64,000 nucleotides of DNA. Source: Bilabrum cf. latius (Eukaryota). The notes under the pieces were generated by a model. That model was not told where the DNA came from and searched no databases. It saw only the letters and a list, made by a program, of their open reading frames with translations. Shown piece by piece: positions 2-64,000 of this stretch. Where the stretch lies: contig OZ237747.1 in NCBI GenBank assembly GCA_965178125.1, forward strand, positions 248,001 through 312,000. The letters run 5' to 3'. Made by a program: the position numbers and the translations under genes. Position 1 is the first letter of the stretch. Every line of letters begins with the position of its first letter.

Positions 2-661
2 ACTGGGGTGCTCCGCAGCCACCAGGTGCTTGGGTTCAACGTGACCAGCGGCCCATGGGAGCTGGACGGGACCCGCAATCCGGACGGATGGCCCTTGTCT
101 CGGCACGACCTCTTCCCCGTGCCTGATGTGTCTGTGCCTCTCGTATGGAGGGCGTGGTAGCCGCAGGGACAGGCACGCGGCGCCGCACTGCCCGCTGCGA
201 GCAGCACTGCGGCGTGCGTCGAGGGCGCGGTAATTGCCATCACGCATGGTGGTCGTGCTGGCGGGGAATCGTGTGCGTTTCTGTGGCCGGCAGGAGTGGA
301 CACAGGGCCGACCATCTCGACCGGGACGGCCAACCGCACCACCGGCCGCATGGACGACGTGCTGGTGCACGTGCACGAGGCCACGGAGGGCTGGGTGCTG
401 CTGGGCGAGCTGGACAAGTTTGTCCCCGCATCTCCTGATCGGGTCACTGGGTATTCCATCACAGCGTCAGGGTGTGGTACTACCACCGGTGCTTCCTTGC
501 GCGCAGGAGCGGACAAGGTGCTGCGCGTGACGGTGCTAGGTTCGGAAGGAGAGGTTGTGAGGATGGTGGCGGCGGCGGCAGGTTCAGATGGGGCGTGGAC
601 GGTGCGGGTGCGGCAAGTGACCTTGCCTGGCTCGGGCACTGCTGAGATTTGCTTTGAGTGA
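2..661 (+). CDS. 3' end of an uncharacterised protein, 5'-truncated by the window edge
   Basis: The frame is open from base 2 to TGA at 659-661 apart from one TAG (158-160). It ends ...GWVLLGELDKFVPASPDRV...AEICFE. Confidence 0.6.
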
Positions 662-1047
662 CTCTGAAACCACCACGGTTGAGACAAACTGATGTGTCCA
701 GCAAGATTTTTGGATCACTGAACGTACGCCACCGTGGACGGCAGGACGTTGCCATCCGGATGGAGGCGTTGCTTGCATTGCAATGAGCTCGCCTCTGATG
801 CGGGCATCTCCACGCCTCTTCCGCCCTACATTGCTTCATGCCACCAGTGTAGCCCCGATCCTCTTGGCATCACTAGGGCCTACAGAGCGCAATACGCTCA
901 GTGAGGCCGAGGATACCGGGGGGTATACCATACCGGGCACCTGACTCACCATCCACCATGCTTGCTCCCACCCACTGCCTTGCTGCCCCACCCCCTCGTC
1001 CCGTGACCCACTCACTCGGCCTGTCCCTCTCTTACTCGCGAACCCGT

Positions 1048-2357
1048 TCACTCGGGATCGGTCGGAATCCGCTTCCTGCGACGAACGCTCCCCGCCCGGC
1101 TGCCTGACTTCCGGCTGCTGCTGGCCCCGGGACCGTCGTTCGTCTGTCGCGGTGGGTCCTCGTCCTCCGTAGAGTCCTCAACCTTCGATGCATGGCCTAC
1201 GTTGGCGTCAGCCTTCTCCCCCTTCTTGCCGCCGAACGGAGGTGGAAGGAACCTCGCCACGATCTTGTCGTACGCGATGGCCCCGAACACGAGCACCACG
1301 CTAGCCCACTGGCTGCTCTTGAGGCCGTGCTTGAACTTGAGGTCCGAGACCACGATCGTCATGAATTTGCGGACCGTGGTGACCGTGGTGAGCAGGAGAG
1401 AGTCGAAGTAGTAGAGCATCGCGAACACGAAGAGCTGTCCGATGGCAGACGCGGCGCTGAAGATCAGCACTGCCTGCAGGACCTGCGGGTGATCCAGCAG
1501 GTACTTGGGGCCCTCGATCAGCTCTCCCTTGACTGCAAGCATCGCGATTGCCGCCAGGGCGCCGAACAAGTTCTGCACGGCCATCAGCTGGCGGTTGCTG
1601 CCAGCGTACTCCTTCAGCACTCGGTCCTGGTTGGGGCCCGTGTACATGTCGCACAGCAGAGAGCCAGCAAGCAAGGACATGCCAATGGCCTCCTGAAGAA
1701 CCGGGCTCATTCCATCCTCGCCTTCTTCTGGGTTTCCAGAGCCTGCCGCCTTCTTCTTCATGCGCAGGAGGTTGAAGGCGGCCACCCCAGCGGCCATCAG
1801 CACGACGCAGACGTACTTGTACGCTGGGTGCGTGCGTCCGTCAAATACTACCTGCCCAATCATGACTGGAATCATCTTGCAGCTCTTTCCTAGAGTTTGC
1901 ACGGGATAGCTCACATACTTGATGGCCTCGTTGGAGCACCACATTGCGAGCATGTACACGGCAGAAATCGGCGCGATCTCTGCGTAAGTGCGAGAATCGA
2001 AACCGTAAATGATTGCAGGACAATCCGTATGCAAAAGAAAAAGCTTTCGGGGTTCGCGGAATCATTCTCACGCTATGCTCCGTCGAGCGACAGAAGGGTT
2101 TTCTGTTTAGACGGCGGCACCTCAGCCTGGCTTTGTTGACTGAAGGCATGGAGCACAAGTTCTACCGCAGATGCCAGGATGAAGCTTACAATTAGCTGAA
2201 CGGCCAGCAGAGTTGACACAGAGCTAAACTTGGTGCCGTCATCCTGCACGACGTAAAGGCCTTCCTACAGAACCCCGTAGACCGAGTACATCCCAATAAT
2301 ACCACCAGCCAAGAGAACAAACAGGAAGAGACCGCCCGTCTTCGACTGCCCAGGCAT
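1048..2357 (-). CDS. SLC35B1: UAA-family nucleotide-sugar (UDP-Gal/ATP-ADP) transporter, SLC35B1-like; intron 1980-2071; 2 in-frame TAG
   Basis: ATG at 2357 gives MPGQSKTGGLFLF...YGVL(TAG)EGLY, matching the family YGxLQE motif. A GTGAG..CGCAG intron joins it to SNEAIKYVSYPVQTLGKSCKMIPVM, TGPNQD and TTVTTVRKFMTI. Ends in TGA. Confidence 0.9.
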
Positions 2358-3072: not shown

Positions 3073-3538
3073 TTACGAGGCAAACGCACAAACGCCAATC
3101 TGTCCCAAATAGAAGTAAATGTAGGTAGCCCCCTTGTATGTCACATAGCTGCTGAATTTCCGCCCCACAAATACATGCCAAGTATGGGCTGGGTATGAAT
3201 CCTTGAGGTTCTATCGGATGATAGATGCCATCTCCTGCAACGAGAACGGAAGCGAAACAAACACAGGTGCACTTGTGCAATGCGAGTGTTAGCATTGCAA
3301 CAAATATGCCCAAGCCCGCCAGCTCACCTATTCTGTGAACCCATCATCAACGGCCTTCTTCGCAAAACCTACGGTCGACGCAGCCATATCTTTCTCCATT
3401 GAGCTGCGACGCAAGCAAAAATCGATGCAGCAATTCATCTGTACAATAGGTGCGTTCTCCATGGATTCGCTGTCTTGGGACGCCTCACCATATATTTACA
3501 ACCGCAGTATCAAGCTTAAACCTTTTCTTATCACTCAT
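3073..3538 (-). CDS. Dynein light chain LC8-family protein; introns 3404-3488 and 3235-3327; 2 in-frame TAG; absent from the ORF track
   Basis: The spliced product MSDKKRFKLDTAVVNICSMEKDMAASTVGFAKKAVDDGFTE(Q)EMASIIR(Q)NLKDSYPAHTWHVFVGRKFSSYVTYKGATYIYFYLGQIGVCAFAS matches the LC8 motif WHCIVGRNFGSYVT..FIYFYLGQ. Ends in TAA. Confidence 0.88.
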
Positions 3539-5302: not shown

Positions 5303-6148
5303 TCAAGAGGCTTTGTTACCCCCGGTTCCTGTTTGCGCTTCGTGCCTCGCGAGCTGGGTCCGCCAGCTCAGGTGATTGCGAAGTGGCTGCGGCACGCTTC
5401 CGCCTCCCACCACCCTGCTCTCGCCGCCGCGGCCGCCCGGCCTGCCTCTGCCCAATCCATGGTCTTGAGCGTGAGATGCACCCGCGGAAGAACTGCCAAT
5501 CAATCCGGAATCGCTAGGTGCTGCAGCGGCTGAGCTTTGGGCTCCCCCTGATGTACGCCTTTTCTTCGAATCGCTTCCACCTGCCGTGGCAGCGCCTGCT
5601 GGCTCGCCCGGCTTGGAAGTTGCGTTAGAAGCCATTTCATCGCGCCCTCGTTTTCGTCTCTTGCCTCTGTTTTTGGGCTTAACAGAGTTGCTTGCGCGTT
5701 TCTTGGTGGCAGGCGCCGCGTCCTGTGCCTCGCCAGCCCACAAGTCTTTCGTCGGCTCTGGTCCCAGTGAAGCTTGTGCGCTTGATTTTGAATCCTTAAA
5801 CGATATGCTAGCCTTCACCAGGCGATCGGCAGCTGTTTTGTTCAACCGCAGTGCTTGCTGCCTCGCCTTAATTCTCTCGATGCTTGATTCAATCCGTTTC
5901 ATGTATTCCTTGACACGCGCTATGCCTTCTCGAACTGGGTGCTGCTTGACATCCTATTTGTGAAGCTACAGGTACGCGAACAACATGGTTTGCATGGAGA
6001 ATGACAACAATGAAAGCAGCCGAGCCTGCGCTATGCAAGCCTACTGCAACTCCCCACCAGCAGCCTTCTCTATGGCCTCAAAGGATTCAACCAGCGGCCT
6101 TGATAAGAATGGATCCAATTTGTCTTTGATCGCTAGAAACGTCTCCAT
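5303..6148 (-). CDS. C1D: C1D/Rrp47 (Sas10/C1D family) exosome cofactor; 3 in-frame TAG
   Basis: QARLLSLLSFSMQTMLFAYL(Q)LHK(Q)DVKQHPVREGIARVKEYMKRIE...LRLNKTAADRLV resembles the C1D core (HPVxxELxRVxxYM). Basic C-terminal tail; ends in TGA. Start codon uncertain. Confidence 0.75.
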
Positions 6149-7844: not shown

Positions 7845-10800
7845 TCAGTAGTCAAAATCGTCCAAGCTATCATCGTCGTCGGGGCGTTCCGTCGTCTTTG
7901 TGGCTTCTTGCGGTCGAGCATCAGCTCCCGCTGTCTCAATGGCCCCACCGCCCTCAATCGCACCCGAAGCAGACGCTTCGAAGTCTGAATCCCCCTCATA
8001 GGCTGAGACCCCGGACAGCTCCAGCCTGGCCGCAGGAGAAGGCAGCTCCATGCGGCCCAGCTGCCCGCCGACGCCGACGAAAGGCTGAGCCGCAGCCCCA
8101 CCGCTCTTCTCGGAACCGCCTGAGGATTCGCTTCCTGGCACCGTGGCCCGCACACCCCTGACTAACTGCTGGGCAGCGGCAGTTCCGATGGACCCGCTCC
8201 CTCCCTGGCTTGCCGCCTTACCCCCTTCCAGTTCCCCGCCTCGGGAGCCAGACCCGGAGTCAGCACCCCCCGAGGCACCACTCTCGCGATCCGACGAATT
8301 TCCGCGACCACTCGGCCCAAACCCGAAGGAGGCCCCCGCTCCCTGCCCCGGCCCGATCCCCCTAACGCCGCCACCACCTCTTACGCCAGGAGGAGAGTCG
8401 TCCAACCCCCTTTCGATCGAGCTCAGTGCGCCCCCGAAGGCAGGGCTGAAGACGGCACCGTCGATGTCCGCCATCTCGTCCTAGATGCCCCCTTCTTCTT
8501 CTTCGTCCTCCCCCGCTCCCCCCATCGGCCTAGCTCCAGTCCCCCCATTGACAGGAGCGCCCTCCCCACCGACTGCAGGCCCACTGGCCCCAGAGCCGCT
8601 GCCCCAATCATCTTCGTTCTCCTCCTCTCGCTCCGACTCCGCCTCAGGGTGCGCCGCGGGATCAAATTCGGAGCCAAAAGACGTGCCCGTTCGCCCGGTG
8701 AAGCTCCGGGTTCCTCTCAACACCGGGCTCTGGGGCTGGCTCTGGCTCTGGCTCCGGCCATGGCTAGAGGAGGCCCCGCCCATCTGCGAGCTGTCCAGCG
8801 AGTCGTAGTCCCGCAGGGGAGACCCTTGTTCCCTGGGCCCCGCCCCGCCCCCGAGGGATGGCCTCTGAAGACGTCCAGTGGAGCTCGCCGCGCGAGAGCG
8901 GTGCATGGGGGAAGATCCCCCGGACACTGCTCCCGACCTGGATCGCGCCCTGCCAGCCGCCGCCAGCCTCGCCATCATCTGCATCCGGGAGCCGTCGCTC
9001 CTCGCACTCCTTGCGCTCCTTGGGCTGTCAATAGACCCACCCGTGGCCCGCGCCCTGGCACCCAGCCCCAGCCCACTGTCCGTCCTCTTGAGCGGAGAAC
9101 CGTCCGAACCCCCCTCCCCCTCCCCCTCCCCCTCGCCCTCGCCCTCGCCCGTCCCAGCCTCCGGGATCGAAGTGGTGGTAGAGGAGGTCAGGGCGCGCCG
9201 GCGGCGGAAGCTCGACAAATCAGGGGGCGAGTCCACGGCCCCGCTCCTCTTGCGGCTCCTGGTGGAGGCCATAGGGGGCGCCCCCTCCGAGGTGGCTTCC
9301 TGGGAATCGCTCCCCGGCGGCGGTGCTTGGCTCCCTCCTGCGCCCGCGCCACTCTGGGCTGCTTCCGAAGAGTTGTCGTCCTAAGGCGATGGGCCGGCTG
9401 CCTGCGTCACGTCTTGCTACTGCTGCTGCTGCTACCCAAACGGCGTGGCAGTATGACCCCAGCCGCTGCTCTAGCTACCAAACCCGCCGCTTCCTCCACT
9501 TCCCCGACCCGTGCCCATGCCCATGCCCATGCCAGTACCACCGAAACCGCTGGAGCCCCCGCTCCCGCCGAACCCACCACTACCTCCGAACCCACCACCC
9601 ATGCCCATACCCACGCTCTTGCCGCCAAATCCACCTCCGAACCCGCCCCCAAATCCACCCCCAAATCCGGTGGAGGGCTAGGACATGCTGCCGGCAGCGG
9701 TAGGCGCAGGTGCCGGAGTCCCAATGCTAGTGCTGGCAGGCGTCAGGTACTCGGCCCCAGAGGACGCCGATGAAGCGGAGGGCACCTGCTAGGCCAAACC
9801 CCGCGCCCCCGCGGATACCTGAGGGGCATGGATGCGCGAGGGCGGGGAAGATGACTTTTTCTTTTCCTAGCTGCCGTCTGCACTGCCGACACTATCTACC
9901 AGCTCTCCCGACAGGTCGATGTCTTCCTCCTCAAGGACCTCGCCCTGGTCCTGGTCCTGGTCCTTGCCATGCTGCTGCTATTGCTCCTCATCCTGGCTGC
10001 CGCTCTCCTCGTTCAGGTCAGCCATAGACACGGGCTGCACCGATGTTCTGGTGGTGCCATCATCACCGCTGCCTTGCTTGAAGCCCTATGGCCGTAATGG
10101 GGAGCCCCCAGCCGAGCCCACACCTGCACCGAACGCCTCCGCTGCAGGCTACCCCAGCCCCAGCCCGGCGCCGTGCACTCCACCATCGCCACCCTCTCCG
10201 TCCACCGACGACGCCACACTCTGCGGCTCGCTCTGCACCGCCACGGCCCCAATCTCTTCGTCCAGCGTGAGAGACACGGGGCCGGTAGGGGGAAACGGAC
10301 GGGCGCCACTGCTGTCCCCCGGCCGGCCCAGAGAGCCAGTACCAGCGGCAGAGCCAGGGCCCGGCGAATGCACCCGGGACTGCCTCGCAACTGGACTCTT
10401 CCGGTAGTCGGCCAGACTGGCAGCTGTGGATTGCCGCGAGAGCACACCCATGGCCTGGCCCACCAGCGCCTCTGCCACTTCTTTCCTCTTGTGCTGCTGC
10501 TGCTTCTGCTGCAGATGCTGGCTGCCGGTACCCCTATGCCGAGACTCATGCACGTCCTCATGCATCTATCGCGGCGTGGACGCGGGGGAAGCGCCGGCTC
10601 GCTGCCACATCCCCTTGCCCCCCGCGCCTCGAGAGGGGGACTGCGCCTCCCTGGCGCTCACCTGCGAGGCAGCTGCCAGCATAGGTGCGCGCCTGTCTCC
10701 GGCGGTCACCGAGACAGTCGGGTGATCCGCGCAGCCCATTCGCCGCCCTGCCTCCGCAGCCGCTGCCGCAGCTTCAGCCTTTGCCTCTGCGAGCATTCGC

Positions 10801-13800
10801 CTGCGCTGCTCCAAGCCCGCCGCTCCACGCGCACGCGCCGCGTCGGCGTCGCTGGCGGCCTGCGCAGCCTCCGATCTCGCCTGCAGCACCTCACGCTGCG
10901 CCAGCTCCTGAAGCTCCAGCAGCCTCCGGTGGGCCGCTTCCGTCTGCTCCTTGTCGCGGCGGGCCTGTTCCAGCTGCAGGACTGCCTTCTCCGCGGCAGC
11001 CTGTCTTCGCCTCGTCTCGGCCTTCACGGCTGCTGCCGATTCTGCCCTGATGCTGGCAGCCCCACTGCTCTGCGCGGCAGCGGCCGACACCACCGCGGCT
11101 CGAGCGGCTGCCGCCCGGTCTCGCAGCTCCTACTCCGCCAGCGCCGCCCGCTCGGCTGTTCTGCGCGAGGCGGTCCACAGCCCCTCGGCTGTGGGCGCGG
11201 GCAACCGGCCCCCAGAGACCGTAACCTCCTCGCCCCCATCCCCCTCTTCCCCTCGCTGGCTCGCGCCCGACTCCCCCAGGTATGCTGTGGATCCCACCGC
11301 GGTCACGCTGCGGGCGCCGTGACGGCCCGCCACGGATTCGATCAGGCGGTGCAGGGCAGTGTAAGCCACTCCCACCGCTTCTCCACGCTGGTCCGCGCGC
11401 GCGATCCGAGCCGACACGGCAGACTCGGCCGCCCGAATCCTGCCCGCCAACGGGGCCACGGTCCCAGCCGCAGGCGCGCCCACCTGTCTCTCTGCCTCGG
11501 CATCCACGGCCGCGGAGAGCTGCGCCACGCGGTCCAGGACCGCCCCTCGAGAGTGGGGCTGCAGGGACAGCACAAAGGGGCTGGAGGGAGCGAGAGGCCC
11601 GCAGAACTCCCCCTGCTGCCCCTGCTAGTCCACTGGATCGCTGGCGGGACCACGGCTGCCAGCGGGTGCCCCATCCCTACCGATAGACCCAGACCCGTAC
11701 CCCGCCGCTGGACGAGAGAACTTGCCCCTGCGACCGGGAGGGGGCAGCTCGAACCCCTTGCGACCACCAACCGAATCGTCCAAACCCCTGGCTGAGGCTG
11801 AACGGGCGGCCGCGGCCGCTGCTACGTGCGCCGCGTCGGCCTCGTCGTATTCCACAGCACGCCTGGCCACCGCCTCGGCTGCCTCGCGGGGGTCGAACCG
11901 CCTCTCGCCCAGCCGAGGGTGCCTCGACACCGGCACGGCCCCACCGCTGCCAGGGAACACGCGCGCGTCCACCTCGGCACCCACGGTGCCCAGCGCCTCC
12001 GGGAGCTCCTCGTCCTCCTTGATGCTGGCCGGGCCCCGTTCCTGGTAGTGCGCCACGGCAGCCTCCACCGCGCCCGGCTGGGTAAAGTCGATCCTCGCGA
12101 GCAGGGCCGCCCGTATGGCGGTTCTCCTCCTCCTTCCCTCGCTCTCCACCTCCCTCCTCAGGTCACTCAGCTGCCTCTCCGCCTCTTGTGCCCTGGCCAG
12201 CGAGTCCTCCGCCTCGTGCTGCGCCCGGGACAGACGCTCCCTCGCCTCCTCTCGCGCGCGACGGGCCACGAACCGACGCCACACCACCAGGGCGTCTGCT
12301 TTGGCCTTCCTCGCGCGACCATTGAGCAGCTGCCTGGCGGCGAACCGAGTTGAGAGCTGCTCGATGTGACGAGCGCGCGCCTGCATGCGGCGAGAGGCAT
12401 CCGCAGACCTCCTGATCGCCGCGCTGGCGATGACCCTGGTCTTGGTGGCCTCCAGCTCCGCCTTGGCCGCCCTGCTCATGTGCCCTGCAGACTGCTGCTC
12501 GGCCTCTCTGGCCGCCTGCTTTGCGTCCTTCAGCATCTCTAGCAGCTTGAGCCTGTCCTGCTCCCACCGGGTCTCGACCCCGTGCACCGCATCCCTGGCG
12601 TGGTGCTCGGCCTTGCCCATCGCTTTCTTGGACCGTGCCCGCTCCTCCTCCAGGGCCTCTTTGTACACGTCCCTCTGAGACCTTGCCTGACCCAACCCCG
12701 CCTTGAGCTCCGCCAGCCGGGCCCGAAGACGGTCCAGCTCCAGCTCAGCCTCGTCCAGCCGGTCGTGCAGCTGCTCCGCCTCGGACTCCCGAGCCGCCAG
12801 CTCTGCACGCGCCCCCGCTCCATCCCCATCTACCCCCTGATCCATGCTGTCGTCAACCCCGTCCACAGACAGATCCAAGCCGCCGGTCTCTACCCCAAAC
12901 CCGACTGGTTCGATGGCCAGCTGCTTGCAACCGGCCTGCACACTAGTGTGCTGCCCCCCCGCAGCAGCACTGGGCGTGATGCCGGTGCCGACGTCCTTGA
13001 GCGTGGATCGCCTGCGCTGGAGCTAAAAGCTGTTCATGCGGCGGTGCGGGCTCGGCGGCGGGGGCACCAGCGCCTGCTGCCCGACGTGGGTCTGCCTCTG
13101 GCAGCTTGACATAGCCGCAGACCTACGGCGGGAAGCGGCCCCTCCTGCCCAGCCCCGGGCCCCATCGAGCATGCTCCGCATCTAGTCAAGAAAGACTCCC
13201 ATGTTGGATCCCTCGCCGCCGCCTTGACCTGTCGGGCCCTCCCGACGGCTTGATATAGCCGGCATCGAGGGTGGCACCATGCCATGGTGCCTCCTCGAGT
13301 GGTGCGACAACAGGGCATCAAACGACACGAACCGCTTGCGGCAGTGCTCGCACGGAAACACAGACACGTCCACCGTGCCGTTGGTTCGAAGCACCCGAGA
13401 ACCGCCATCCAACGTGCCCCTGCCTCGGCTTGTTCTCCCTGTTGCTCCCCCCAGACCCCCCATTTCCCCTTCCATCCCTCGCATGGTCCTGTAGGCCTGC
13501 TCCACGTACTTGCCGATCTGTACCAGGGCCTTGTGCGAGGCAGCCAGAGAAGTGGCATCCACCGCCCATGGCTGCGGCTCGCCCCCAGGCACCGTCACGT
13601 GCCCCGCCCCCGCGCTGAGCACGCCCGCATCGAGCGCAGCGCCCAGCACCTGCCTGAGGGACCTGACGGCCCTCCTCGCCTGCTCGTCCCTCTCCTCGAG
13701 GCGGGCGACCCGGGTGTTGGCAGCTCGCAGGTCTCTCTCCATCTAGGCCAGAAGGACGTCTCCTCCTGCGGTGCAATGCAGTGCACATGAAACGGATCGG

Positions 13801-27623: not shown

Positions 27624-27672
27624 ACGCTGCCCCCTCAGCGCTCGAAGAGCACCGCGACTCGATTGCCGCTCA

Positions 27673-49406: not shown

Positions 49407-49535
49407 TGCCTCTCGTTTGCGAGGCAGCTCTCCAAACTGCATAGCAATGCGATGCATTCTAAGGTGCACTGCATGATTCTGCGTCAATGTCGCGCTCCGC
49501 TCACCCGCCCACTGTAGGGCGCCCATCATGCCATC

Positions 49536-52280: not shown

Positions 52281-52865
52281 TCACGATCTGCCCGGTGTGC
52301 CTGTGGTGCCGTCCATCTGATTCATGACGGCAAGTGCTGTTCGCTGAGCCAACGCCCAGTGCCACCCTTTACGTATGAGAAACTAAGTCAGGCTCTCTAA
52401 GGACCTCCGTCCGATTCGATACGCTCGTGAAGCCTCTCGTTGACAAGCTGCCGAGTCATCGTAGCTTTCGAGCGCATCTGTTGCCGTGCTGCCACGGACA
52501 CCTGCTTTCGACAGCTCTCCCATGATAGCAACTTTGCTCTTGGGCTTATAGCGCTGCCGTTGCTGAACCATCCAATCCGCGAATTCGCTGTCGTCAACTA
52601 GACGGGCTGTCTTCAAATGCTCGACAACCGATTCGGCTCGAGACTTGCATTCGCTGCTGATGCGCGACATATTCGTACTTGTTTCATCCGAATCCTCCTT
52701 GTGGACTCTCATCAAGCCGTGGTACCTGTGCTTGGGTTTCATCGCTGTCCGAACGCACAGCTACTACAACTTCCGAGACAGCTCACCGCTGCTTTGAGGT
52801 CGTTGACCCAACAGCCGCAAGCTATGCATATACATGTGTTGAAACCACGGTGGGCGTTTTGCCAT
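52281..52865 (-). CDS. recX: RecX-family RecA regulator; 3 in-frame TAG
   Basis: SLRLLGQRPQSSGELSRKL(QQ)...VVEHLKTARLVDDSEFA...IMGELSKAGV...LT(Q)FLIRKGW covers the three RecX helical repeats. Ends in TGA. Confidence 0.8.
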
Positions 52866-52920
52866 GCTGGCTCGGACACTACTAGTATGGGAGAAAATTG
52901 AGATCTGAAATCTGGTCAAA

Positions 52921-53014
52921 AGCCCGTTCCAAACCCGATTTGTGTGCAAATCCGATCGGATTTGCGAATCAAATCGGATCGGATTTGCGAATCAAATCGG
53001 GTTTGGAACGGGCT
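52921..53014. repeat. 94-bp MITE-like hairpin with perfect 22-bp terminal inverted repeats
   Basis: AGCCCGTTCCAAACCCGATTTG (52921-52942) pairs with CAAATCGGGTTTGGAACGGGCT (52993-53014). Internal 20-bp palindrome GCAAATCCGATCGGATTTGC. Confidence 0.85.
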
Positions 53015-53314: not shown

Positions 53315-55618
53315 TCACTCCATAACAGGGGGCCAACGCTGAGACACGAGACCCCCACCTGTCGCATGAAAGTAGTACAGGCTCGGGACACCCCCAGGCA
53401 CCCCGGGGTCCAGCTTCCCCAACCACCCCCTCTCCAGGTCCCCAGGAAGGGGTCCTTCCCTTGTAAAGGGCCCTTCGTAGAACCTCTGTAGATGCGGTGG
53501 CACTGGCCGAGACCCTCCCCTGTCTCCATTGCCATTACCCTATCTGGCTCCTCCGCTCACGTGTATCACGCGGGGCACACCTATCTAACTGTTCTGGGAA
53601 GCAATCGGCACGGTGCCAGGCAGTATGGGCGGCGCTGTGGGGGCACCGCACCTGCGGGGCACCGCAGCCCCAAGACCCGATGGCCCCCCGGCAGCAGCAC
53701 CGTGACCTGTGCCAGAGCTAAGCAACCCATTTCGTTGCGAGGCCTCGGCCGCACGACCAGAACCATCGAAAGGACCACCCCGGGCCGAGGGAGCGGTGCC
53801 TTTGTCTCCTTTCTGGCGTGTAGGCACGAACACCTGAGGGAGCCTCGCCATCTGCGTCGCGTCGGGCCGTTGCACCAGACCGCCGATACTCCTCTACTGA
53901 CCTAGGCCGGCGCCAGTCTCTGTGCCGCATGGCATCCAGGCAGCAGTCGCGGAAGCCGGAGGGGCACTCGGCTCCGGGCCGCCCCAGGCTTGTTGTTTGG
54001 AGCCTCGTGCAAGTTGCTGCTATGGCTGCCGCTAATGCAAGGCTGGATCTGCCGGTGGTGCCGACGGTTCGGGCTACCTCGTTTCAGAGCCTACTCCTCC
54101 TCCACCTCGCCGCCTTTCTCCCTCTCCACCCGCCGTTCCACCGCGAGCCACTCGTTTGCCTGGATTGCTGCCACTCCTGGCGGCATGCGCGCTCCTCGCA
54201 GCTTCTGCATCGACAGCGAACGGGTCCACGAACCTCACCACCAGAGGCCTCTCCCTGTGCCTCATGATCGCTTCCCTTACGTGCACGTACACCATGTGGC
54301 TAACGTCCTCCCCGCCTACGGACAGCAACTTGTGCCCGGGACCGATCTGACCCATCTCCCTCCTCTACTCCACGGGGCACTGCGCGCTCCCCACGTCTGC
54401 CTGCGACTCTGGCACGATTCTGGACACGATCGTGGTCGAATCCTCGGCCTGCAGGATCCCGAGGCCTAGCTTGCCTTTCCGGCGAAAGGTGCACGTGTAC
54501 TCCCGGCGGGTTGGCAGGTCCCGGCGCAGCAGGCCTGACTCAGTGTTGCGGAACCACCATGCGCCGCTCCTGCGCTCACATTCCCAACGCCACGGGGACG
54601 GGAGGGCGCAAGCGGGAGCAGGCCCGGACCATCGCGTCGACGGTTTCTCTGCGGAGGGCATGATGTGCGAGCCTCCCACAATCACGTTCCCGAAGTTGGT
54701 ACCACCCTCGAGCTGCAGGAAAGTGGGCCCTCCGGCAAGGACCAGCTTGCCGCTCACCGTTGCATCCGCGGGGCCCGATGGCTCCCTTCCGGGCGCTAGG
54801 AGCGGAATCGTGACCTCGCATTCAATCGCTTCCTTGCTCCCGCGCTTTTGGAGCCTCGCGAATTTCCCCAGCCGCAGCTCGCCCTCAAGGACCACTGGCT
54901 ACCCCGCGAAGAACCCAGCATACTTTCCCACCATGCGGACCGTGAGCACCCCATCACGCACTTCGGAGGGTACCAGCGGCAAGCGCAGGGCCGACAATTG
55001 CGGGATTCGTATCTAAGACCCGGCTGGCTGGGGATCTGGTACTTTGGTGATCGCGATCGACTGCTGTCTGTGGGTCTGTGCCAGCGGGCTCCTCCCGGAG
55101 CGCCCTTGGAAGGCTGAAGCGGGCATGCTCAGTTCAAGCTATCCACCCGTTGGGATACCGCTGAGAACAACATTCTTCATGCTTATAGCGATATGACGCA
55201 CGTGCTTCATCTGCACCTGTAGACGTAGGGTGGCGATATGAGCGGCTGCTGGGCCACTGCGCATGGGAATTTCGAGCTACTCTGGGCCTGTTGCCAAGCT
55301 GTGAATATCGACAGTAGACTACGCAATGACATCCACTTGGCTGCGAATGTAACCATATTTCACCAGGACTAATTGAAGAGCAAGCCGCCTGGTCTTCAGC
55401 GCAGTGTCCGCCGTTGTGACGTACGAGAACGTCTGCATAAATCTCTCGAAGGAGATGTTGGCCTCTCTATTGTGATATAAGGCTTCCGTTCTTTTAGTCA
55501 TCTACCCATCAAAGTCCAGTCGAAGTTCGATCCTGAATCCTTCTCGTAAAACAGTTGTGTCGGCAATGGTCACCCTCAATCTGCCTAGTCTGACCCAAAA
55601 CTCGTCTCTCTCTGCCAT
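53315..55618 (-). CDS. Multidomain scaffold protein: C2-like region(s), WW, PDZ and C-terminal WW-like domain; 767 aa; about 13 in-frame TAG
   Basis: A 768-codon frame with no internal TAA or TGA. WW: LPSPWRWECERRSGAWWFRNTESG..P. PDZ: GKLGLGIL..IVSRIVPESQA..(TAG)..IGPGHKLLSVGGEDV..RPLVVRF. Ends in TGA. Confidence 0.7.
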
Positions 55619-55844
55619 AACGCACAACTGTATAGATCAAATGCAGCACAGTCGCCTGGTTGATGTGAGATAGATTCCGTACCTGGCGCTGAAACTCGAC
55701 GAGAATAGGGTGGATTAATTGGACAAAACAGATTTGCAGCGTTCATAAGTACACTGTACAATAAGAATGATGCCCGGCAGGACGAACGGCACAGAAAGCG
55801 CGACACTTGCACTCGGCGCATTGCAAGTTGCACAAACATCTAAG

Positions 55845-56637
55845 ATGGCATCTGCCGGAGGTGCCTTGCAGCGCAAGGTTGTATTGGTTGGAGATGCCGC
55901 CGTCGGCAAGTCCTGCATTGCAGTCCAGCTTCAGCGAGGCGAATTCTATGATTTTAGCGAACCCACGATCGGAGGTGCGACACACACTGCTACACGCCTA
56001 AAAGATGTCGTTCTGGGGCGCAGCGGTACTGTTAAGCCTTATCCAGATTGCCATACCGACCTGTTTCGCAGCCGCATTCGTCACCAAGGAAATCGAGCTT
56101 CCAGATTGCACAATTAGCATGGAGATTTGGGACACGGCAGGACAAGGTAGGAATTAAGCGCACTTTTCCATCATCACGCCCAGTGCATCTACTTCTGCTG
56201 CTATACCACCTAATAAGGCCTTGCTGCTTGCACTGTCTTGCCGAATCGCAGAAAGGTATCGATCCCTCGCACCGCTGTACTACAGGAATGCGAACGCTGC
56301 ACTCGTCGTCTACGATGTAACAAACTCTGAGAGCTTTGACGGTGCGAAGCGCTGGGTGAACGAGCTGAAGCGGCAGGGCGACCCCGGCACGCTAATCGCG
56401 ATCGCCGGCAACAAGTGTGATCGAGACAGCGAGAGGCAGGTATCCGCCGACGAGGCCAGGGAGTTCGCCGAGCAAGACGGCCTCGTGTTCATGGAAACCA
56501 GCGCGAAGACGGGCACGAACGTGAAGGAGATCTTCGAGGAGATGGCCCGGCGCATGCCCAGGGACTCCAAGGACAGCGAGGGCGTTGACGTGGCGGCGGC
56601 GGGCGGGGACAAGGCGGCCGGGGGGTGCTGCAGCTGA
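55845..56637 (+). CDS. RAB5: Rab5-like small GTPase; introns 55975-56071 and 56147-56251
   Basis: GDAAVGKS, EPTIG|AAF, WDTAGQ|ERYRSLAPLYYR, GNKCD, ETSAKT and C-terminal CCS. Ends in TGA. Confidence 0.9.
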
Positions 56638-56784: not shown

Positions 56785-59772
56785 TCAACCAGCACCCGGC
56801 AACTGCTTCAGGTCCACCCGCTGCGTCTTTGGGCGCTTGCACACTCGCAACTTGCCCAGTTTCTTGGCCTCCATGGCCTCGTAGTCCGCCCCCGACATGC
56901 CGTACTCGTTGGCACGGTTGGGGTCCACGGGGTAGAGGTACCTCTGCCACAAGAAGAGGAGGAAGACCACGTCGTCGCGGAAGCAGGCGATCCTGTGCAG
57001 CGTGGGCATGCGGATGACAAAGGCGAAGAGGTCGTCCACTACAGTGTTAAGGGAGCGGTACACCATGGCCTTCCACGGCATGTGCGCGACGCTCTTGAGC
57101 TTGTAGTTGATGAACAGCTGCGGGGTCATGAGGATGAAACCGAAGGCGTACACGAATCCCGTCAGCGAGGAGAGAACCCACGAGTAGTAGCTCTTGTGCT
57201 GGTCGTACAGCAGCGAGTAGCACGCGTACCCCACCACGAGAGGGAACGCCACAAAGCCCAGGTGGGACATTGCCATGTCGTCGAACTCCTTGGCCCTGGA
57301 CTTGGCGTACTCTTCCTGGTCCTCCCACGTGACAGACGGCAGCAGGCTTCCCTATTTCCACTCAACGGACACCTCGAAGGCGCGCCTCAGCTTCCACACC
57401 TCGATGGCCAGCCCCACCGCGCTGGAGCCCAGCACCATCCAGGACGTGTCATTGTCCCAGAGGTACAGGAGGATGACCCCCTGGAAGAAGACGTTCATGG
57501 CGATCTGCTTCATCGAGAGCCCCTCCACGCTCTTGGCGTTGCGCCAGAACGACACGTCGCTGCTGAATGCCGCAAATTCGAAGACCATGTGCAGCAGAGA
57601 CACGGTCCCGAAGACCGCGAGCAGGATGGGGTTGGCTTCGAGCAGCATGGCCTTGAGGATGTCTCCGTCCTGCTTGCGCTGGGTGCCCATCTGCTGCTGC
57701 ATACTCATGCTGGCCTCCGCCTGCGATAGCATCAGCCAGTACCAGCTCGACTGCACCTCCAGCCGGAGCTCGAGCGGCGCGTGGGTCACCGTTCGGTTCA
57801 CCTCGATCCAGTCCTCCATCAGGCCCCAGAAGTGATTCACGTACGTCACCGGCACGTACCCCGGGGCCCCCTCCCGCTCCACCGTGGCGCGGACAAAGCC
57901 AGGCCGCTCACCCCCCGCGACGCCCTTCCCTGTCTTTGCGCCTGGAGCACTCGCCGCCCCCCCTCCTTTCCCGCCGCTGCGAGGGACTCTCTTCCACACG
58001 GTGTGCTTCACCATTGGCTTCTCAGCGCGAATCCACTCGCCGTACGGCGGTTGCACGAAGCCCTTGCCTCTAACCGGCACCGGTGTATCGTCTTGCACCA
58101 TCGCGACGTGTAGGTTGGGCCGCCAGTACGGCAGCACCGGCGCATCTTCTTCTTCTTCTTCTTCTTCGACTCCACTGCCGCCCTGATTATCGCGTGCACC
58201 TTCCTCGCCCCCTTCCGCATCATCCTTGCTAGCCTGGATGCCAATCCCGAACCTAGGAACCACCCTATCGCCCGCATCTCCATCCTCGCCCTCTGCCCCT
58301 CCCTCTCCATCATCCCCGCCAATGCCCGTCACCAGAGACCTCAGCTTGCTCTCCTTCCGCTTGGGGTGAAAGACGACCACAGGGCTTACTCCTCGCGAGC
58401 AGTCCGCGGGCCGGTAGCCCGCGGCCGAAGGGTCGGGCGTGCTGCCCGATCTGGTTGCAACCACGTGCGCGAATACCGTCACGTTACCCCGCGCCAGCGC
58501 CGCGGGGATAGTCACGTTGATCGTGGCGGTGGCCTGATGGGTCCCCAGCCCGACACGCACTCTCCCAGCATTCGACACGGCCCCCCGGTCACTGCTGCCA
58601 TTTTCCTCCTCTTCCTCCTCCACGCCGAGAGCCAGGGCGGTGGTAAATCGCAGCCCCCTCCGCGCGAAAATAAGCACAGCCCCCGTGCCTTCTTCCTCTT
58701 CCTCCTCGCTGGCACTGCCGGTGCCTCCCACTGCTCTCGGTCCTGAAGCGGGCTGCTGCTCGGCCTCGGGTGCTAGAACCCCCCACTCTTCGTCTTGATC
58801 ACTTTCACTACCAGCACTCTATAGGGTGCTATCAATGGGCTACTGCTTGCCACCTGCGCCTGTCCCAGGCAGCACCCCGTCATGCTCGTCCAAAAGCAGG
58901 CGCTGCTGCGCCCAAGCGACCTCCCAGCTCGGGCTAGTCGCAGCCTGCGCTAGCCCGTCCCACGCTGGGATCGTGTCGACTTGCCCTCCAGTATCTCCCT
59001 TTCCCCCCTCGCTGGCTGTACTGCCGCTGCTGCTGCTGTTCTCTGCTTCTATGATTCCGAGTCCCTCGGCGGACCACCGGCACGCAGCGCTGATGCCGCT
59101 CCACGCCGCCCCTAGGAGGCTGAACGAGGTGCTCGCCTTATCGTCGCCATGCGGCACATCGCCCATTCCGAGCGTGGCAGCAGCCACCCCACCGCTGTGG
59201 CTGGACTGGAACGCACCCTCCCACGACACCCGAGGCACCTCCCGCTGGTAGCGTCCAGTCACAGCGTCGGGCAGGCCGAACGCGCGAGCCAAGTCGGCTG
59301 TCCCGGGAAATTTTTCGTGCTTGTTCGGTATTGACGCAAAATCGTTTCCCCTGGGAACCTCTGGCGTCGCAGATAAGAAGACGAACACGTCAAGCTCTTC
59401 CTGACCTGCTTGCCACAAGCTGCCGATGCCCTTCACACCTCCAAGCCTAGATAAGCTTGCAGCTCGATCAGCATCGTACTCATCCAGTAACGGCCCAACC
59501 ATATGGCTGGATCGAAACTTCATCTTCGTGGGGTCTACCCCTCCAGTCAACATCGAGAGTACACTGGGTGGGCTCTCTCGGTCTATACCTGGTCCTGATG
59601 GCGGAGACACTGATTCTTCTTCGGCCGCATCACGCTTTCGTATATCCTACTTCTTGCCACCAGATAAAAACTGGTACCCTAAGAATGCTAGCATGCCGCC
59701 TTGGAGCAAAATCCATATGACACTCACCGGCGGTGTCGGCTTGTTTGCCTCACCACCAGTACCCTGGGCCAT
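56785..59772 (-). CDS. CLPTM1: CLPTM1-family membrane protein (lipid scramblase-like), 995 aa; 4 in-frame TAG
   Basis: Motifs ILKAMLLEANPILL..SLLHMVFEFAAFSSDVSFW, IEVWKL, FGFILMTPQLFINYKLKSVAHMPW and HRIACFRDD. TAGs at 59647, 58840, 58819 and 57352; ends in TGA. Confidence 0.9.
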
Positions 59773-60789: not shown

Positions 60790-60892
60790 AGCGATATGAT
60801 TTTCGTAAATTTTAGTCGTTTGTACGATCGCAGCAATATGTCGCACCGCTGCGCTGCACCCCTCTCTCTCCCTTGTGCCGTGAATGTTGCGA

Positions 60893-63800
60893 TCACTGCC
60901 CCCCGTCGCTACCGTCGTCATCCAGCGAAATCGCAGCAAGTACCTCGGGATCGTAGTCGTTCTCCATGCTGGCAAACCCGACAGATCTTTCGTCTTCGCT
61001 GCACCCCCCATCGCCAGTCGAGCCGTGCTCCTCCTCGCCGCAGCCACTGACCATGGCGCTTGACGCCCCGACAGCTGCAGCCGGCTGTTGCGCTCCCACC
61101 CTCTTATTCTCAGACCTCAGTAGGCAAATGATCTTTCCATGCACTCCTGTAGCATGCCGGATAGCCATTCCATTGTAGTTCGCAAGTACGCTGCGCACAG
61201 ACGACGCGATTGGCCAGTTCGCCAGCTCTTGCTCGAAAGCATGCATCACTGCCAGTGCCGATGGCTGCTCGTGCATTGACAGCGAACTGATCGCCAATGA
61301 TTTGCGGCGCGCCAGTCCCCGGGCATCGGCTGCGGGTATGCCGAGCACTAGGGCGTGCAGCACAATTCCAATCGGGCCGAGCGCCGCGCGCGCATTTGAC
61401 AACCTGGCCCACTGCCCTGCAAGATCCTGCTTTCCGCTTGCGCTACGTGCAACTGCCTGCATCAGATCCCCTAGGTATTGCTGCAACTGCTCGTTCCGCA
61501 ATGATGCTAGCTTGGGGAATACGCTAGCGTGGCCCGCGTGCTCCGTAACGGAACCAAGCAGCCCAATCGGGGTCTCGGGTTCACCAGCCGACCTGCACAG
61601 TGCCATTAACACAGCCGATGCTGGCTCTACCGAGCACATGCATGAGTCTCCATGGGCCACTTCTAGAGGAAAAGCGAACGTTTCTTGGCATATCTTCTCT
61701 CTTAATTCTGCTGCTCGAATACAGCCAAGTGCACGAGCCACCACCTCGCGTAGCCGTGTCCAAGCAGACGGCCGCAGATCGCCTTCCACATCCGGCACCG
61801 CTCGCACCATCACTGCTACTGGAGATCCTACGGCCTCTTTACGGCTTGCACGATCGCGCGTTGTTCTTCGGAGGATTAGTTGCCCCGACACGGCAGCCCG
61901 CGCTTCGAGAGCCATCGCTGCCGCAGTCTCCGCCCGCACCTAGCCCATGGCTGACGAGTCGCTCGCCTGGACGACTTGGCTTCTTGTCGACGATGAAGAC
62001 GATGAGGAGGATGCGGATAGTGGTGACGAGGATGCATCGCGCTGTAGCTGCGATGCAGCTGCTCGAGTCACCGATTCGACGGCACATTGGGATGCGCAGT
62101 GGAGCAGCAAGACACGCTCCACATCGCTCAGGCTCGCAGTGGCAGCCACCTCCTCGGCAATCTGTGCGCACCAAACCTGAGAATAGACCATTGGATCGCA
62201 CTAAACAGTACCGCTAATGCTATCATATGCCTGCTGTGCCATTTCCCGAAGGACGCAGGGAATGGCTTGCAGAGACACTCCCGCATTGGCCTGGCCGACC
62301 AAACTTGTGCGGTTCAGAGCCACGCCTGCGACGCTCCATGGCAGCAAGTCTCCTACTGATGCTGCAAAGTCGACACACTGCGCGGTTTGCATTTGATCTA
62401 ATGCGAGAGCTGCATAACGGACAAACAGCTTCGGGCCGACCTAGCACAGACTTCGATTCAACTTGCTGCCCCCCTGTTTCTGGCTCATCTCCAAAACGTT
62501 GCTTCCTAGCAAGGAACCAAACGACACTGCAACTAGACTCACTGCAAGGCTCGCAATGTCATTGTCGTGGGAGTGCTCACTTGGGACTAGGTCCAGCGCC
62601 AGGACTTCTCGAGCGGAAGCGGAAATCGCGCCTCGATCCGCGCTTGTGGCGTCAGGCCTCCTTGCGAGCACTTGCGCCAGAATCATCCATGATAGCCTAG
62701 CTAGTAGTGCGCGCCGATGCGGCAATCCGTCATAGGCGGCTGTTGCGCCAAGGCAGACACGTCGGCACAGGCTGACCAGTCCTTGCCCAGTCTCCTAGAG
62801 GTGGCCATGCAGGGCCACGTCGACGACAGTCTGCACCATGGAACGACCCAATCGCGTGCAAAGCAGCTCCATTCCGCTAGTAGAGTCTGCGTACACACAA
62901 ATTTCTCCGGCAACTAGTTCTAGAGCTCGCACACCTCGTTCATTTGCCAGCATCTCGTTGGTCTGCTCCTGAATGAAGCCACTCACCGCAAGACAGCACG
63001 CGCTGACTACCGCGGCCCTCACCTCGTCTCGAGGGAGCTGGCTGCACATTCTGCCCCTCTGGTGGGCTACTACAGATGCTACGAGGGCGAGCTCGGGGAG
63101 AGATGTGGCTTCGAGCCCAAGAAAAAGCCCGAGTATTTCGCGCACCTGCTCGAACTGCTTCCAGGTGTGGCTCGAAGTGGATCGAAGCTCGCTCTGAAAC
63201 CGCCTCGACTGAACCAGTAGGGTCGCGCTTGCACTACTTGTCTCGAAATCACCCTTGCCTTGCAGCATGACTGCCTTGGGTCTCTGCTAAAGGATCGCAA
63301 GGAACATCAAGGCCGCCTCCCGCAGGTCGTCCACCTCTGTGGTTGACAGCCGCTCGGCAGACTTCAGGCATTTCAATGACAACCGCAAGATGTCCGTCAC
63401 GAGGAGGAGCTGTGATTGCGTCCAAAGAAGCCTTGGCAACGCCAAGCATCCCATTAGATGCTTGAGGGAGCCAGCAGCAATGCGAGACATGGTGGAGCTC
63501 CACACTGCACCAGTTGCTCTGTCATCGTGCTCACCTAGGGACACCAGCATGACTCGAAGCAGCTTTCTCCCCCGTACCATCGATTGCCGAACAACGGTCT
63601 CTTTGTCGTGAATGGGCTAAAGATCATGCGCTGTTTGTGCAGCAGCACCCTGCCGTGAGCTGCTGGTGAACGCTAGCCCAATGCTGGCTGCCTGTAGCGA
63701 CATTCCCACGTCCTTTACAGCCCTAGCACAGCCTTGGCTAGGACTTCTTGCGAAGTGCTCTATCAGTAAATGTAGTATTTGCTCATTGTCGTGGTCGAGC

Positions 63801-64000
63801 CGATTGGCACACGCCCTCCCGCGCCATGGGTGCCAGCCCAATGCAGTGCTGTCGTCCACACTGAGACTCCCAGGCGCAGAAGCATCCCAGCGCTCCTGCA
63901 AGGGCCAGCTTGACTCTGCAGCCCCTCCAATTGATAAATGTAAAGCAGCCATTGCGGTTCTGGTCTTAAGTGCTTGGCTCGTGGTGTCCGTGACGGACTG
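60893..64000 (-). CDS. 3' part of a large uncharacterised helical protein, 5'-truncated by the window edge; at least 6 in-frame TAG
   Basis: Seven ORF-track fragments (63617, 63287, 62795, 62441, 62201, 61940, 60893) share one frame, joined by TAG. Open to base 64000; ends in TGA. Confidence 0.7.

What the first reader, a model, noticed from the sequence alone, without database searches (positions are those of the whole stretch)
2..64000. Non-standard nuclear genetic code: UAG is a sense codon, most likely Gln
Seen in the sequence: more than 70 in-frame TAGs by my manual count, in nearly every gene, with no accompanying frameshifts or internal TAA/TGA. They fall inside indispensable domains: between the G1 and G2 boxes of the PDK-like kinase (43446), within the CLPTM1 membrane core (57352), within a PDZ domain (54365), and in the LC8, C1D and RecX cores. 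TAG at 2265-2267 occupies the conserved Q of the SLC35B1 YGxLQE motif, and TAG at 46433 gives (Q)GWLFYP. Established knowledge: UAG-only reassignment in nuclear genomes is rare (e.g. UAG=Gln in the fornicate Iotanema and a few ciliates; equivalent to NCBI table 15). Inference: this GC-rich, intron-poor flagellate does not look like those AT-rich lineages (it resembles bicosoecid-type stramenopiles in style), so this may be an independent, possibly undescribed reassignment.
Basis: partly seen in the sequence, partly recalled or inferred. Interest (0 to 1): 0.95.

Follow-up and report, generated by a model that had tools for sequence, protein, structure and literature searches.

The report
UAG read as glutamine, nuclear genes
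This GC-rich stretch of a protist's nuclear genome uses the stop codon TAG as an ordinary codon inside nearly every gene, most likely for glutamine, which would add a lineage to the few eukaryotes with this altered genetic code.

Summary
In 17 supported coding segments (8,905 codons) frame 0 holds 67 TAG, 0 TAA and 0 TGA. The other two frames hold 54-73 TAG, 18-22 TAA and 134-151 TGA. Of 19 genes, 18 end in TGA, one in TAA and none in TAG.

Public runs carry spliced contigs of this locus, so they are transcripts. These contigs keep 38 of 45 in-frame TAGs between 43000 and 62999 unchanged, which argues against editing, splicing-out and assembly error.

Glutamine is the best reading.
- TAG 2265-2267 sits at the Q of the SLC35B1 "LQE" motif, which is Q in 6 of 6 homologues.
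- A 79%-identical metagenomic CLPTM1 orthologue also has in-frame TAGs. One lies where the window has CAG and 112 of 120 homologues have Q.
- In 82-88% identical orthologue fragments, four window TAG sites align with Q, Q, E and E.

TAA looks like a stop, so the code resembles NCBI table 15. No tRNA, eRF1 or whole genome was available, and the organism's lineage is unresolved. My literature searches found no report that fits.

The parts
2130..2357 (-). SLC35B1/UAA-family transporter, first coding exon (approximate 3' end). TAG at 2265-2267 in YGVL-x-E.
   Evidence: the column is Q in 5 of 5 homologues that have the N-terminus and in human SLC35B1 (PDB 9grz).
1048..2061 (-). SLC35B1-like exon 2 ORF. 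No TAG in 337 codons; stop TGA.
   Evidence: the top hit is a 91%-identical relative (P0122), and Pfam PF08449 is recorded on the hits.
3073..3399 (-). LC8 dynein light chain. Exon 1 is 3399-3328, with TAG as its last codon (3328-3330). Predicted GT..AG intron 3327-3235. Exon 2 is 3234-3073, with TAG at 3211-3213 and TAA stop at 3073-3075.
   Evidence: Dynein_light 51.9 bits. The TAA falls at the family's usual C-terminus. The intron is predicted from the sequence only.
5303..6148 (-). C1D/Sas10-family gene with 3 in-frame TAGs (6041, 5966, 5954); stop TGA.
7845..13838 (-). 1,997-codon gene of unknown family with 17 in-frame TAGs, some inside polyQ runs; stop TGA.
   Evidence: orthologue fragments from relatives at 82-88% identity.
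15904..41677 (-). Tandem array of 4 units, each with a C2H2 zinc-finger gene and a long GC-rich ORF. TAGs are kept at the same columns in all copies. The coding status of the GC-rich ORFs is unproven.
43155..44504 (-). BCKDK/PDK-like kinase with TAGs at 44304, 44151 and 43446; stop TGA.
45434..47869 (+). DUF1853-domain gene with 7 TAGs in the RNA-supported part, including 46433; stop TGA.
48144..49409 (-). GDP-mannose-transporter-like gene. The intron 49208-49306 is spliced in 3 runs. TAGs at 48741 and 48357; stop TGA.
49452..52203 (+). EF-hand gene. The intron 50740-50977 is spliced in RNA. 6 in-frame TAGs in the exons; stop TGA.
52281..52949 (-). RecX-like gene with TAG-TAG at 52761-52766 and TAG at 52383; stop TGA.
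53315..55627 (-). WW/PDZ-like gene with 13 in-frame TAGs, all inside one unspliced transcript contig; stop TGA.
55845..56637 (+). Rab5-like GTPase with 2 introns confirmed by RNA. Highest word depth of the stretch laid, no in-frame TAG, stop TGA.
56785..59772 (-). CLPTM1 with TAGs at 59647, 58840, 58819 and 57352; stop TGA. CAG at residue 764 is the site where the relative L001 has TAG.
60893..63952 (-). 1,019-codon gene of unknown family with 6 in-frame TAGs; stop TGA.

Best explanation
The window is nuclear DNA of a GC-rich eukaryote in which UAG is a sense codon, most probably glutamine. UGA is the main stop codon and UAA also terminates, so the code is equivalent to NCBI table 15. At least two to three related organisms share the change. 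The inferred mechanism, not shown here, is a dedicated tRNA-Gln with anticodon CUA, which reads UAG but not UAA, together with an eRF1 that no longer recognises UAG efficiently. UAG makes up roughly 15% of glutamine codons. It is scarce at conserved positions and in the most conserved coding stretches checked.
For: Sense codon:
- Frame 0 of 8,905 supported codons holds 67 TAG, 0 TAA and 0 TGA. The other frames hold 18-22 TAA and 134-151 TGA.
- Homology continues in the same frame across TAGs in BCKDK-like kinase, CLPTM1, C1D, RecX and DUF1853.
- 18 of 19 genes end in TGA, 1 in TAA and 0 in TAG.

Not an artefact, editing or splicing:
- Contigs of runs X5, X6 and X7 (2 studies) carry four GT..AG joints that the DNA run X1 lacks.
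- Their listed pieces cover 38 of 45 in-frame TAGs in 43000-62999 with no differing letters. 12 of these are covered in two or more runs.

Glutamine:
- TAG 2265-2267 aligns with Q in 6 of 6 SLC35B1/UAA homologues.
- The 79%-identical orthologue L001 has TAG where the window has CAG and where 112 of 120 homologues have Q, 6 H and 2 M.
- In relatives' fragments, window TAG sites align with Q (219, in two relatives), Q (903), E (738) and E (1786). One relative's ORF stops where the window has CAG.
- The window-to-relative substitution rows are Q->Q 75 of 88 and Q->E 3 of 88, against E->Q 1 of 155.
- TAG occurs inside polyQ runs.
- 11 of 67 TAGs (16.4%) lie next to a Q, as do 15.6% of Q residues. 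Every other residue is at or below 10.5%.
- Pfam scores favour Q over E by a summed 3.6 bits across five domain matches.

UAA as a stop:
- LC8 ends in TAA at the family's C-terminus.
- L001's CLPTM1 ends in TAA.
Against: - Translation itself was not observed; there are no peptides and no ribosome data.
- Only two strongly conserved columns support Q, and one of them is in a relative, not the window.
- Two of four orthologue comparisons give E.
- At variable columns the solved homologues have K (LC8), N (GDP-mannose transporter) or R (BCKDK lid).
- The C1D domain scores best with K: 38.1 bits against 35.8 for Q.
- A crude neighbour-profile score ranked K and L above Q.
- Two paralogue columns show TAG opposite TCG (Ser), in a low-complexity ORF whose coding status is unproven.
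- The absence of TAA from frame 0 is partly built in, because the ORFs were delimited by TAA and TGA.
- The kind of the runs (RNA or DNA) is the tool's guess, and X5 was labelled 'probably DNA'. My reading of them as transcripts rests on the spliced joints.
- No tRNA gene lies in the window and no genome is held.
Confidence: 0.82

Rival explanations
1. UAG is a sense codon but encodes another polar residue, glutamate or lysine, rather than glutamine.
For: - Relatives have E at 2 of the 4 window TAG sites that could be compared.
- LC8 homologues have K at the exon 2 TAG.
- The C1D Pfam score is highest with K: 38.1 bits, against 35.8 for Q and 34.0 for E.
- Several TAGs lie in acidic contexts.
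Against: - The two conserved columns are Q in 6 of 6 and 112 of 120 homologues, with no E or K.
- The window has CAG where relatives have TAG or a stop, at two sites.
- E->Q changes are rare between these relatives, 1 of 155.
- Q beats E by 3.6 bits summed over five Pfam matches.
Confidence: 0.1
2. Both UAA and UAG are reassigned (table 6-type, UAR=Gln). UAA is simply too rare in this GC-rich genome to appear in 64 kb.
For: - 18 of 19 genes stop at TGA.
- A-ending glutamine codons are in the minority: CAA 108 against CAG 453.
Against: - LC8 stops at TAA exactly at the family C-terminus.
- The relative's CLPTM1 stops at TAA.
- With CAA about a quarter as frequent as CAG, roughly 16 in-frame TAA would be expected beside 67 TAG, and 0 are seen. 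The ORF definition biases this count.
- Allowing TAA as sense lengthens only the longest of the 15 longest ORFs listed, from 2174 to 2272 codons.
Confidence: 0.04
3. The code is ambiguous. UAG is read as an amino acid inside genes but also terminates some genes depending on context, as in Condylostoma or karyorelict ciliates.
For: It cannot be excluded from 19 genes. Any gene that truly ended at TAG would have been read on to the next TGA in my ORF calls.
Against: - 0 of 19 genes need TAG as a stop. Where C-termini can be judged (Rab5 CC tail, LC8, CLPTM1, SLC35B1 against its relative) they end at TGA or TAA.
- No special base context follows TAG. The +4 base profile resembles that of CAG.
Confidence: 0.04
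4. The TAGs are not translated. They would be pseudogene lesions, unannotated in-frame introns, RNA-edited sites or assembly errors.
For: One raw-ORF TAG (50769) does lie in an intron.
Against: - All 67 interruptions are TAG and none is TAA or TGA.
- The transcript contigs keep the TAGs with no gaps or differences, while genuine introns are spliced out of the same contigs.
- Four DNA runs and three other runs agree.
- Relatives carry TAGs or stops at the same or nearby positions.
Confidence: 0.01

Closest known systems
Iotanema spirale (Fornicata) nuclear code: UAG=Gln, UAA stop (PMC5304391; passages read)
   Same: It is a non-ciliate eukaryote in which only UAG is reassigned to glutamine while UAA stays a stop. 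The proposed route is the same: tRNA-Gln(CUA) plus an altered eRF1 (T32G in the GTS motif in Iotanema).
   Different: The window's genes do not look fornicate-like, although the lineage is unresolved. The window is GC-rich (56-73%) and UGA is the dominant stop. eRF1 and the tRNA could not be examined here.
Ciliates with UAG=Gln only: Protocruzia tuzeti and two phyllopharyngean lineages (PMC11687900; Discussion passages read)
   Same: They have the same codon table (UAG=Gln, UAA not reassigned), and the change arose repeatedly and independently.
   Different: From my own knowledge, ciliate macronuclear genomes are AT-rich. This locus has 62% GC, ~100-240-nt GT..AG introns and sits on a contig of at least 212 kb. 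Its CLPTM1 groups with unnamed environmental sequences.
UAR=Gln codes (NCBI table 6: many ciliates, Hexamita, Streblomastix, ulvophytes, Amoeboaphelidium; listed in PMC11687900)
   Same: A stop codon is captured by glutamine.
   Different: Here TAA behaves as a stop and is absent from frame 0.
Other UAG-only reassignments: uncultured rhizarian exLh (Leu), Scotinosphaera (Ser), ciliate PL0344 (UAG=Glu, UAA=Lys) (PMC11687900, PMC5304391)
   Same: UAG is decoupled from UAA.
   Different: Hydrophobic and aromatic readings score worst in the C1D domain (L 29.9, Y 29.6, W 27.7 against Q 35.8 bits). The conserved columns are Q. Ser is suggested only by two paralogue columns in an unproven ORF.

Membership tests
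UAG=Gln, UAA/UGA=stop nuclear code (NCBI table 15 equivalent) | UAG occurs in frame inside conserved, expressed genes | tested here: met
   67 TAG in frame 0 of 8,905 supported codons. 38 of 45 TAGs are kept in transcript contig pieces. Homology runs across the TAGs.
UAG=Gln, UAA/UGA=stop nuclear code (NCBI table 15 equivalent) | UAG aligns with glutamine at conserved columns | tested here: met
   The SLC35B1 column is Q in 6 of 6. The CLPTM1 column, where the relative L001 has TAG, is Q in 112 of 120 and the window has CAG. Only two such columns exist. Orthologue sites give Q, Q, E, E.
UAG=Gln, UAA/UGA=stop nuclear code (NCBI table 15 equivalent) | UAA still terminates | tested here: met
   LC8 has a TAA stop at the family C-terminus. 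L001's CLPTM1 has a TAA stop. There are 0 TAA in frame 0 against 18-22 in the other frames (partly by construction). The sample is small.
UAG=Gln, UAA/UGA=stop nuclear code (NCBI table 15 equivalent) | UGA still terminates | tested here: met
   18 of 19 genes end in TGA. There are 0 TGA in frame 0 against 134-151 in the other frames.
UAG=Gln, UAA/UGA=stop nuclear code (NCBI table 15 equivalent) | A tRNA-Gln with anticodon CUA | not testable with these tools
   There is no tRNA gene in the window and no genome is held.
UAG=Gln, UAA/UGA=stop nuclear code (NCBI table 15 equivalent) | eRF1 N-domain changes that weaken UAG recognition | not testable with these tools
   eRF1 is not encoded in the window and no genome is held.
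UAR=Gln code (NCBI table 6) | In-frame UAA as well as UAG | tested here: not met
   There are 0 in-frame TAA, and TAA stops are seen in LC8 and in L001's CLPTM1.
Ambiguous stop/sense codes (Condylostoma type) | The reassigned codon also ends genes | tested here: inconclusive
   0 of 19 genes end at TAG, but my ORF calls read through every TAG.

The most novel reading that the evidence does not exclude
This is an independent, undescribed UAG-to-glutamine reassignment shared by a small clade of GC-rich protists outside ciliates and fornicates. The clade would hold the window's organism, relatives at 82-91% protein identity in public assemblies, and a 79% relative in a metagenome. UAG would be a young, still disfavoured glutamine codon, kept away from conserved sites and from the most conserved genes.
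Probability: 0.45. Interest if true: 0.75.

Novelty: new member of a known kind. Interest (0 to 1): 0.66.

Why it matters
Nuclear codes in which UAG and UAA mean different things are rare. The papers I read list about eight lineages, most of them ciliates. A GC-rich, intron-bearing non-ciliate with UAG=Gln and UGA as the main stop would add an independent origin. It would also test the view that stop-codon capture is driven by AT pressure.

There is a practical consequence. Standard-code gene callers cut this organism's proteins at every TAG. The database entries of its relatives are such fragments, so annotation and phylogenomic use of these assemblies need the right table.

Tried and rejected
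- Whole genome and relatives: none is held for this window, so no search for tRNA(CUA), eRF1 or rRNA was possible. ARAGORN found no tRNA in the window and Rfam found no family.
- CLPTM1: all four window TAGs fall in gap or variable columns and say nothing about the residue.
- PDB searches: SLC35B1 exon 1 alone found nothing. C1D found only a chance hit.
- The neighbour-profile likelihood was inconclusive, ranking K, then L, then Q.
- Paralogue comparison in the tandem array gave mostly conserved TAGs plus two TAG/TCG columns, in an ORF of unproven coding status.
- L001 carries no Rab5 orthologue downstream of its CLPTM1, so it gave no further conserved gene to test.
- The genome-contig scan with SLC35B1 exon 2 found no relative.
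- A dinoflagellate spliced-leader motif (recalled) has no match in the window with up to 3 mismatches.
- Sequencing runs: no listed holder is on record as RNA. 7 of the 45 TAGs are not covered by the listed pieces.
- Literature searches found no report of UAG=Gln in a GC-rich non-ciliate. Supplementary files were not consulted.

Full report
**What the window is.**
The 64 kb are GC-rich (56-73% per 4 kb) and encode typical eukaryotic nuclear proteins. Pfam matches, read with TAG as sense, are:
- CLPTM1 (1.3e-96)
- Cupin_8
- Sas10/C1D
- arrays of C2H2 zinc fingers
- a HATPase_c kinase that aligns with solved BCKDK/PDK structures
- EF-hand
- RecX
- DUF1853

Inspection and further searches added four genes:
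- an LC8 dynein light chain
- an SLC35B1/UAA-family transporter
- a GDP-mannose-transporter-like gene
- a Rab5-like GTPase

No tRNA and no Rfam family lies in the window, and no whole genome is held for it.

Under the standard code the longest ORF is 755 codons. With TAG as sense the longest are 2174, 2023, 1375, 1261, 1181, 1035 and 999 codons. That alone proves little, because in this GC-rich DNA a TGA-sense reading also lengthens ORFs.

The informative test is frame specificity within frames supported by homology, RNA cover or orthologues. I used 17 segments with 8,905 codons in all.

| Frame | TAG | TAA | TGA |
|---|---|---|---|
| 0 | 67 | 0 | 0 |
| 1 | 73 | 18 | 151 |
| 2 | 54 | 22 | 134 |

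TAG is therefore as common in frame as out of frame, while the other two stops are excluded from the reading frame. The zero for TAA and TGA is partly built in, because the ORFs were delimited by them. However, the frames are many times longer than the roughly 78 codons expected between random TAA or TGA triplets (triplet counts). They also span full-length homologous domains in a single frame.

TAG occurs in 14 of the 17 segments and makes up 0-33% of putative glutamine codons per segment. Of 19 genes, 18 end in TGA, one (LC8) in TAA and none in TAG.

**RNA and independent reads.**
Eleven public runs hold part of 52200-60000. Four runs of one sample hold all of it, and that sample may be the window's own source. 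I laid X1 and three other runs (X5, X6, X7; two studies) on 43000-62999.

The tool could only guess what kind of run these are, and it labelled X5 'probably DNA'. But X5-X7 carry contigs with four joints that have GT..AG ends and are absent from X1:
- 49207>49307, on the minus strand, in three runs
- 50739>50978
- 55972>56070, in three runs
- 56144>56250, in three runs

Their depth is also strongly uneven, up to 473 on the Rab5 gene. I therefore read them as transcripts.

No differing letters, insertions or deletions were listed for any run. The listed contig pieces cover 38 of the 45 in-frame TAGs in this stretch, 12 of them in two or more runs. That includes all 13 TAGs of the WW/PDZ gene within one unspliced 2,542-base contig, and 10 TAGs inside contigs that are themselves spliced.

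One TAG of a raw ORF (50769) lies in the intron 50740-50977 and is removed. This shows that real introns are spliced out of these contigs while the other TAGs stay. Contigs can hide rare variants, so low-level editing is not excluded.

**Which amino acid?**
Most window TAGs fall in variable columns.
- CLPTM1's four are in gaps or loops.
- The kinase's 43446 is in the variable lid between the G1 and G2 boxes.
- LC8's exon 2 TAG aligns with K.
- The transporter's 48741 aligns with N.
- The PDZ-region TAG is in a variable column.

Two columns are strongly conserved and both are glutamine.
- TAG 2265-2267 in 'YGVL-x-E' aligns with Q in all five homologues that have the N-terminus, and in human SLC35B1, PDB 9grz.
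- A metagenomic contig, L001, encodes a CLPTM1 orthologue 79-80% identical to the window's. It has two in-frame TAGs. One sits in 'NVFF-x-AVILLYL', where the window has CAG and 112 of 120 homologues have Q, 6 H and 2 M.

Six other metagenomic CLPTM1 loci (44-54% identity) have no in-frame TAG in the domain.

Protein databases hold fragments of closer relatives, cut by standard-code gene callers:
- P0122, 91% identity (SLC35B1)
- P0131, 86% (WW/PDZ gene)
- P0140-P0143, 82-88% by BLASTP (the 1,997-codon gene)

In their best alignments, window TAG sites face Q (site 219, in two relatives), Q (903), E (738) and E (1786). One relative ORF stops where the window has CAG (Q1066). Three fragments stop exactly at window TAGs: site 272 twice and WW/PDZ site 421. 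I could not see the relatives' DNA, so that those stops are TAG is an inference.

From the same alignments, window Q faces Q at 75 of 88 sites and E at 3 of 88. Window E faces Q at only 1 of 155. My own rough likelihood from these rows favours Q over E about 26-fold for the four sites. It favours Q by about two further orders of magnitude when the sites where a relative has a stop or TAG opposite window CAG are added.

Supporting, weaker signals:
- TAG lies inside polyQ runs, for example 'FG-x-QQQQ-x-QD' and 'EEQ-x-QQH'.
- 16.4% of TAGs are adjacent to a Q, like Q itself at 15.6%. All other residues are at or below 10.5%.
- The base after TAG has the same profile as the base after CAG.
- Pfam bit scores are higher with Q than with E by 1.7, 1.3, 0.2 and 0.6 bits, and lower by 0.2, in five matches.

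Signals against:
- The C1D domain scores best with K (38.1), then Q (35.8), A, R, E and S. L, Y and W score worst.
- A crude neighbour-profile score ranked K and L above Q.
- Two paralogue columns in the tandem array show TAG opposite TCG, in a low-complexity ORF whose coding status is unproven.

Overall I put glutamine at about 0.85, given that UAG is sense.

**UAA and UGA.**
UGA ends 18 of 19 genes. LC8 ends in TAA one residue beyond the end of its alignment to solved LC8 chains, which is the family's normal C-terminus. L001's CLPTM1 also ends in TAA. No TAA is in frame. With CAA about a quarter as frequent as CAG, some 16 would be expected if UAA were also glutamine. Allowing TAA as sense changes only the longest of the 15 longest ORFs listed. 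The code therefore looks UAG-only, though 64 kb is a small sample.

**How it most likely works.**
The following is inferred from established knowledge, not shown here. A tRNA with anticodon CUA reads UAG but not UAA, as shown for Tetrahymena tRNA-Gln(CUA). UAG-only lineages carry eRF1 changes near the residues that contact the third stop-codon base, such as T32G in Iotanema (PMC5304391, passages read).

No special context follows the TAGs. This argues for general decoding rather than motif-dependent readthrough.

TAG is absent from the two most conserved coding stretches checked, Rab5 exon 3 and SLC35B1 exon 2, and also from the Cupin_8 segment. It is mostly at variable sites elsewhere. That fits a codon that is tolerated but still disfavoured.

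**Who is it?**
This is unresolved. In a FastTree of 43 CLPTM1 sequences, the window and L001 form a pair (100% support) on a long stem. The pair sits inside a 17-sequence clade (100% support) made of unnamed environmental proteins plus one labelled Symbiodinium sp. KB8. That clade is separate from oomycetes, Chattonella, plants, Capsaspora and Acrasis.

This is a single gene with local support values only, and bicosoecids were not among the named sequences. A recalled dinoflagellate spliced-leader motif is absent from the window.

**Comparison with what is known, and novelty.**
According to the Discussion of PMC11687900, UAG-only nuclear reassignments are known from:
- an uncultured rhizarian (Leu)
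- Iotanema spirale (Gln)
- Scotinosphaera (Ser)
- Protocruzia tuzeti (Gln)
- several phyllopharyngean ciliates (Gln twice, Leu)
- a ciliate that reads UAA as Lys and UAG as Glu

The codon table inferred here is therefore already known. What may be new is the lineage.

Four full-text searches found no report of UAG=Gln in a GC-rich non-ciliate. I saw only search listings and abstracts, apart from passages of the two papers named above, and supplements were closed. The depositors of the 2025 runs may already know of it.

I rate this a new member of a known kind. My confidence is high that UAG is sense, good that it is glutamine, and about even that the case is undescribed.

Noticed in passing
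window 15904-41677: There is a tandem array of four units of roughly 5-6.5 kb. Each unit has a C2H2 zinc-finger gene and a long GC-rich ORF containing (GAG/GGC)-type 'GEGEGE' repeats. Where fully scanned, the zinc-finger genes have 13-14 fingers, and the copies are 84-86% identical. The GC-rich ORF copies are 96-97% identical. Several long ORFs overlap on both strands, so the true coding frame of the GC-rich part is unproven.
   Followed up: partly
window 8000-44000: GC skew is strongly negative (-0.14 to -0.23 per 4 kb, apart from -0.05 at 12-16 kb). This coincides with a run in which every recognised gene from 1 to 44.5 kb is on the minus strand. After 44.5 kb gene orientation is mixed and the skew is near zero.
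   Followed up: no
window 55845-56637: The Rab5-like GTPase has by far the highest word depth in the transcript contigs (up to 473). It contains no TAG. SLC35B1 exon 2 (337 codons) also has none. TAG appears to be avoided in the most conserved or most highly expressed coding sequence.
   Followed up: partly
window 49523-52898: One transcript contig spans the EF-hand gene (+ strand, spliced) and runs on over the whole RecX-like gene on the opposite strand. This suggests overlapping convergent transcripts, or a long 3' UTR antisense to RecX.
   Followed up: no
window 44186-47869 and 52281-52949: Two families that are mainly bacterial, DUF1853 and RecX, are encoded in this eukaryotic contig. Both carry in-frame TAGs and have transcript cover, so they are resident genes and not bacterial contamination.
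   Followed up: partly
L001 1-3102: The 79% CLPTM1 relative shares the TAG usage and ends its gene in TAA. Downstream of its CLPTM1 there is no Rab5 gene, so local gene order differs from the window.
   Followed up: partly
window 53315-55627: The 770-residue protein with 13 TAGs combines an N-terminal C2-like region, a WW-like motif, a PDZ-like domain and a C-terminal WW-like motif. Only 9 representatives match it in 1.84 billion proteins, and Pfam matched no family at E<=0.01.
   Followed up: partly
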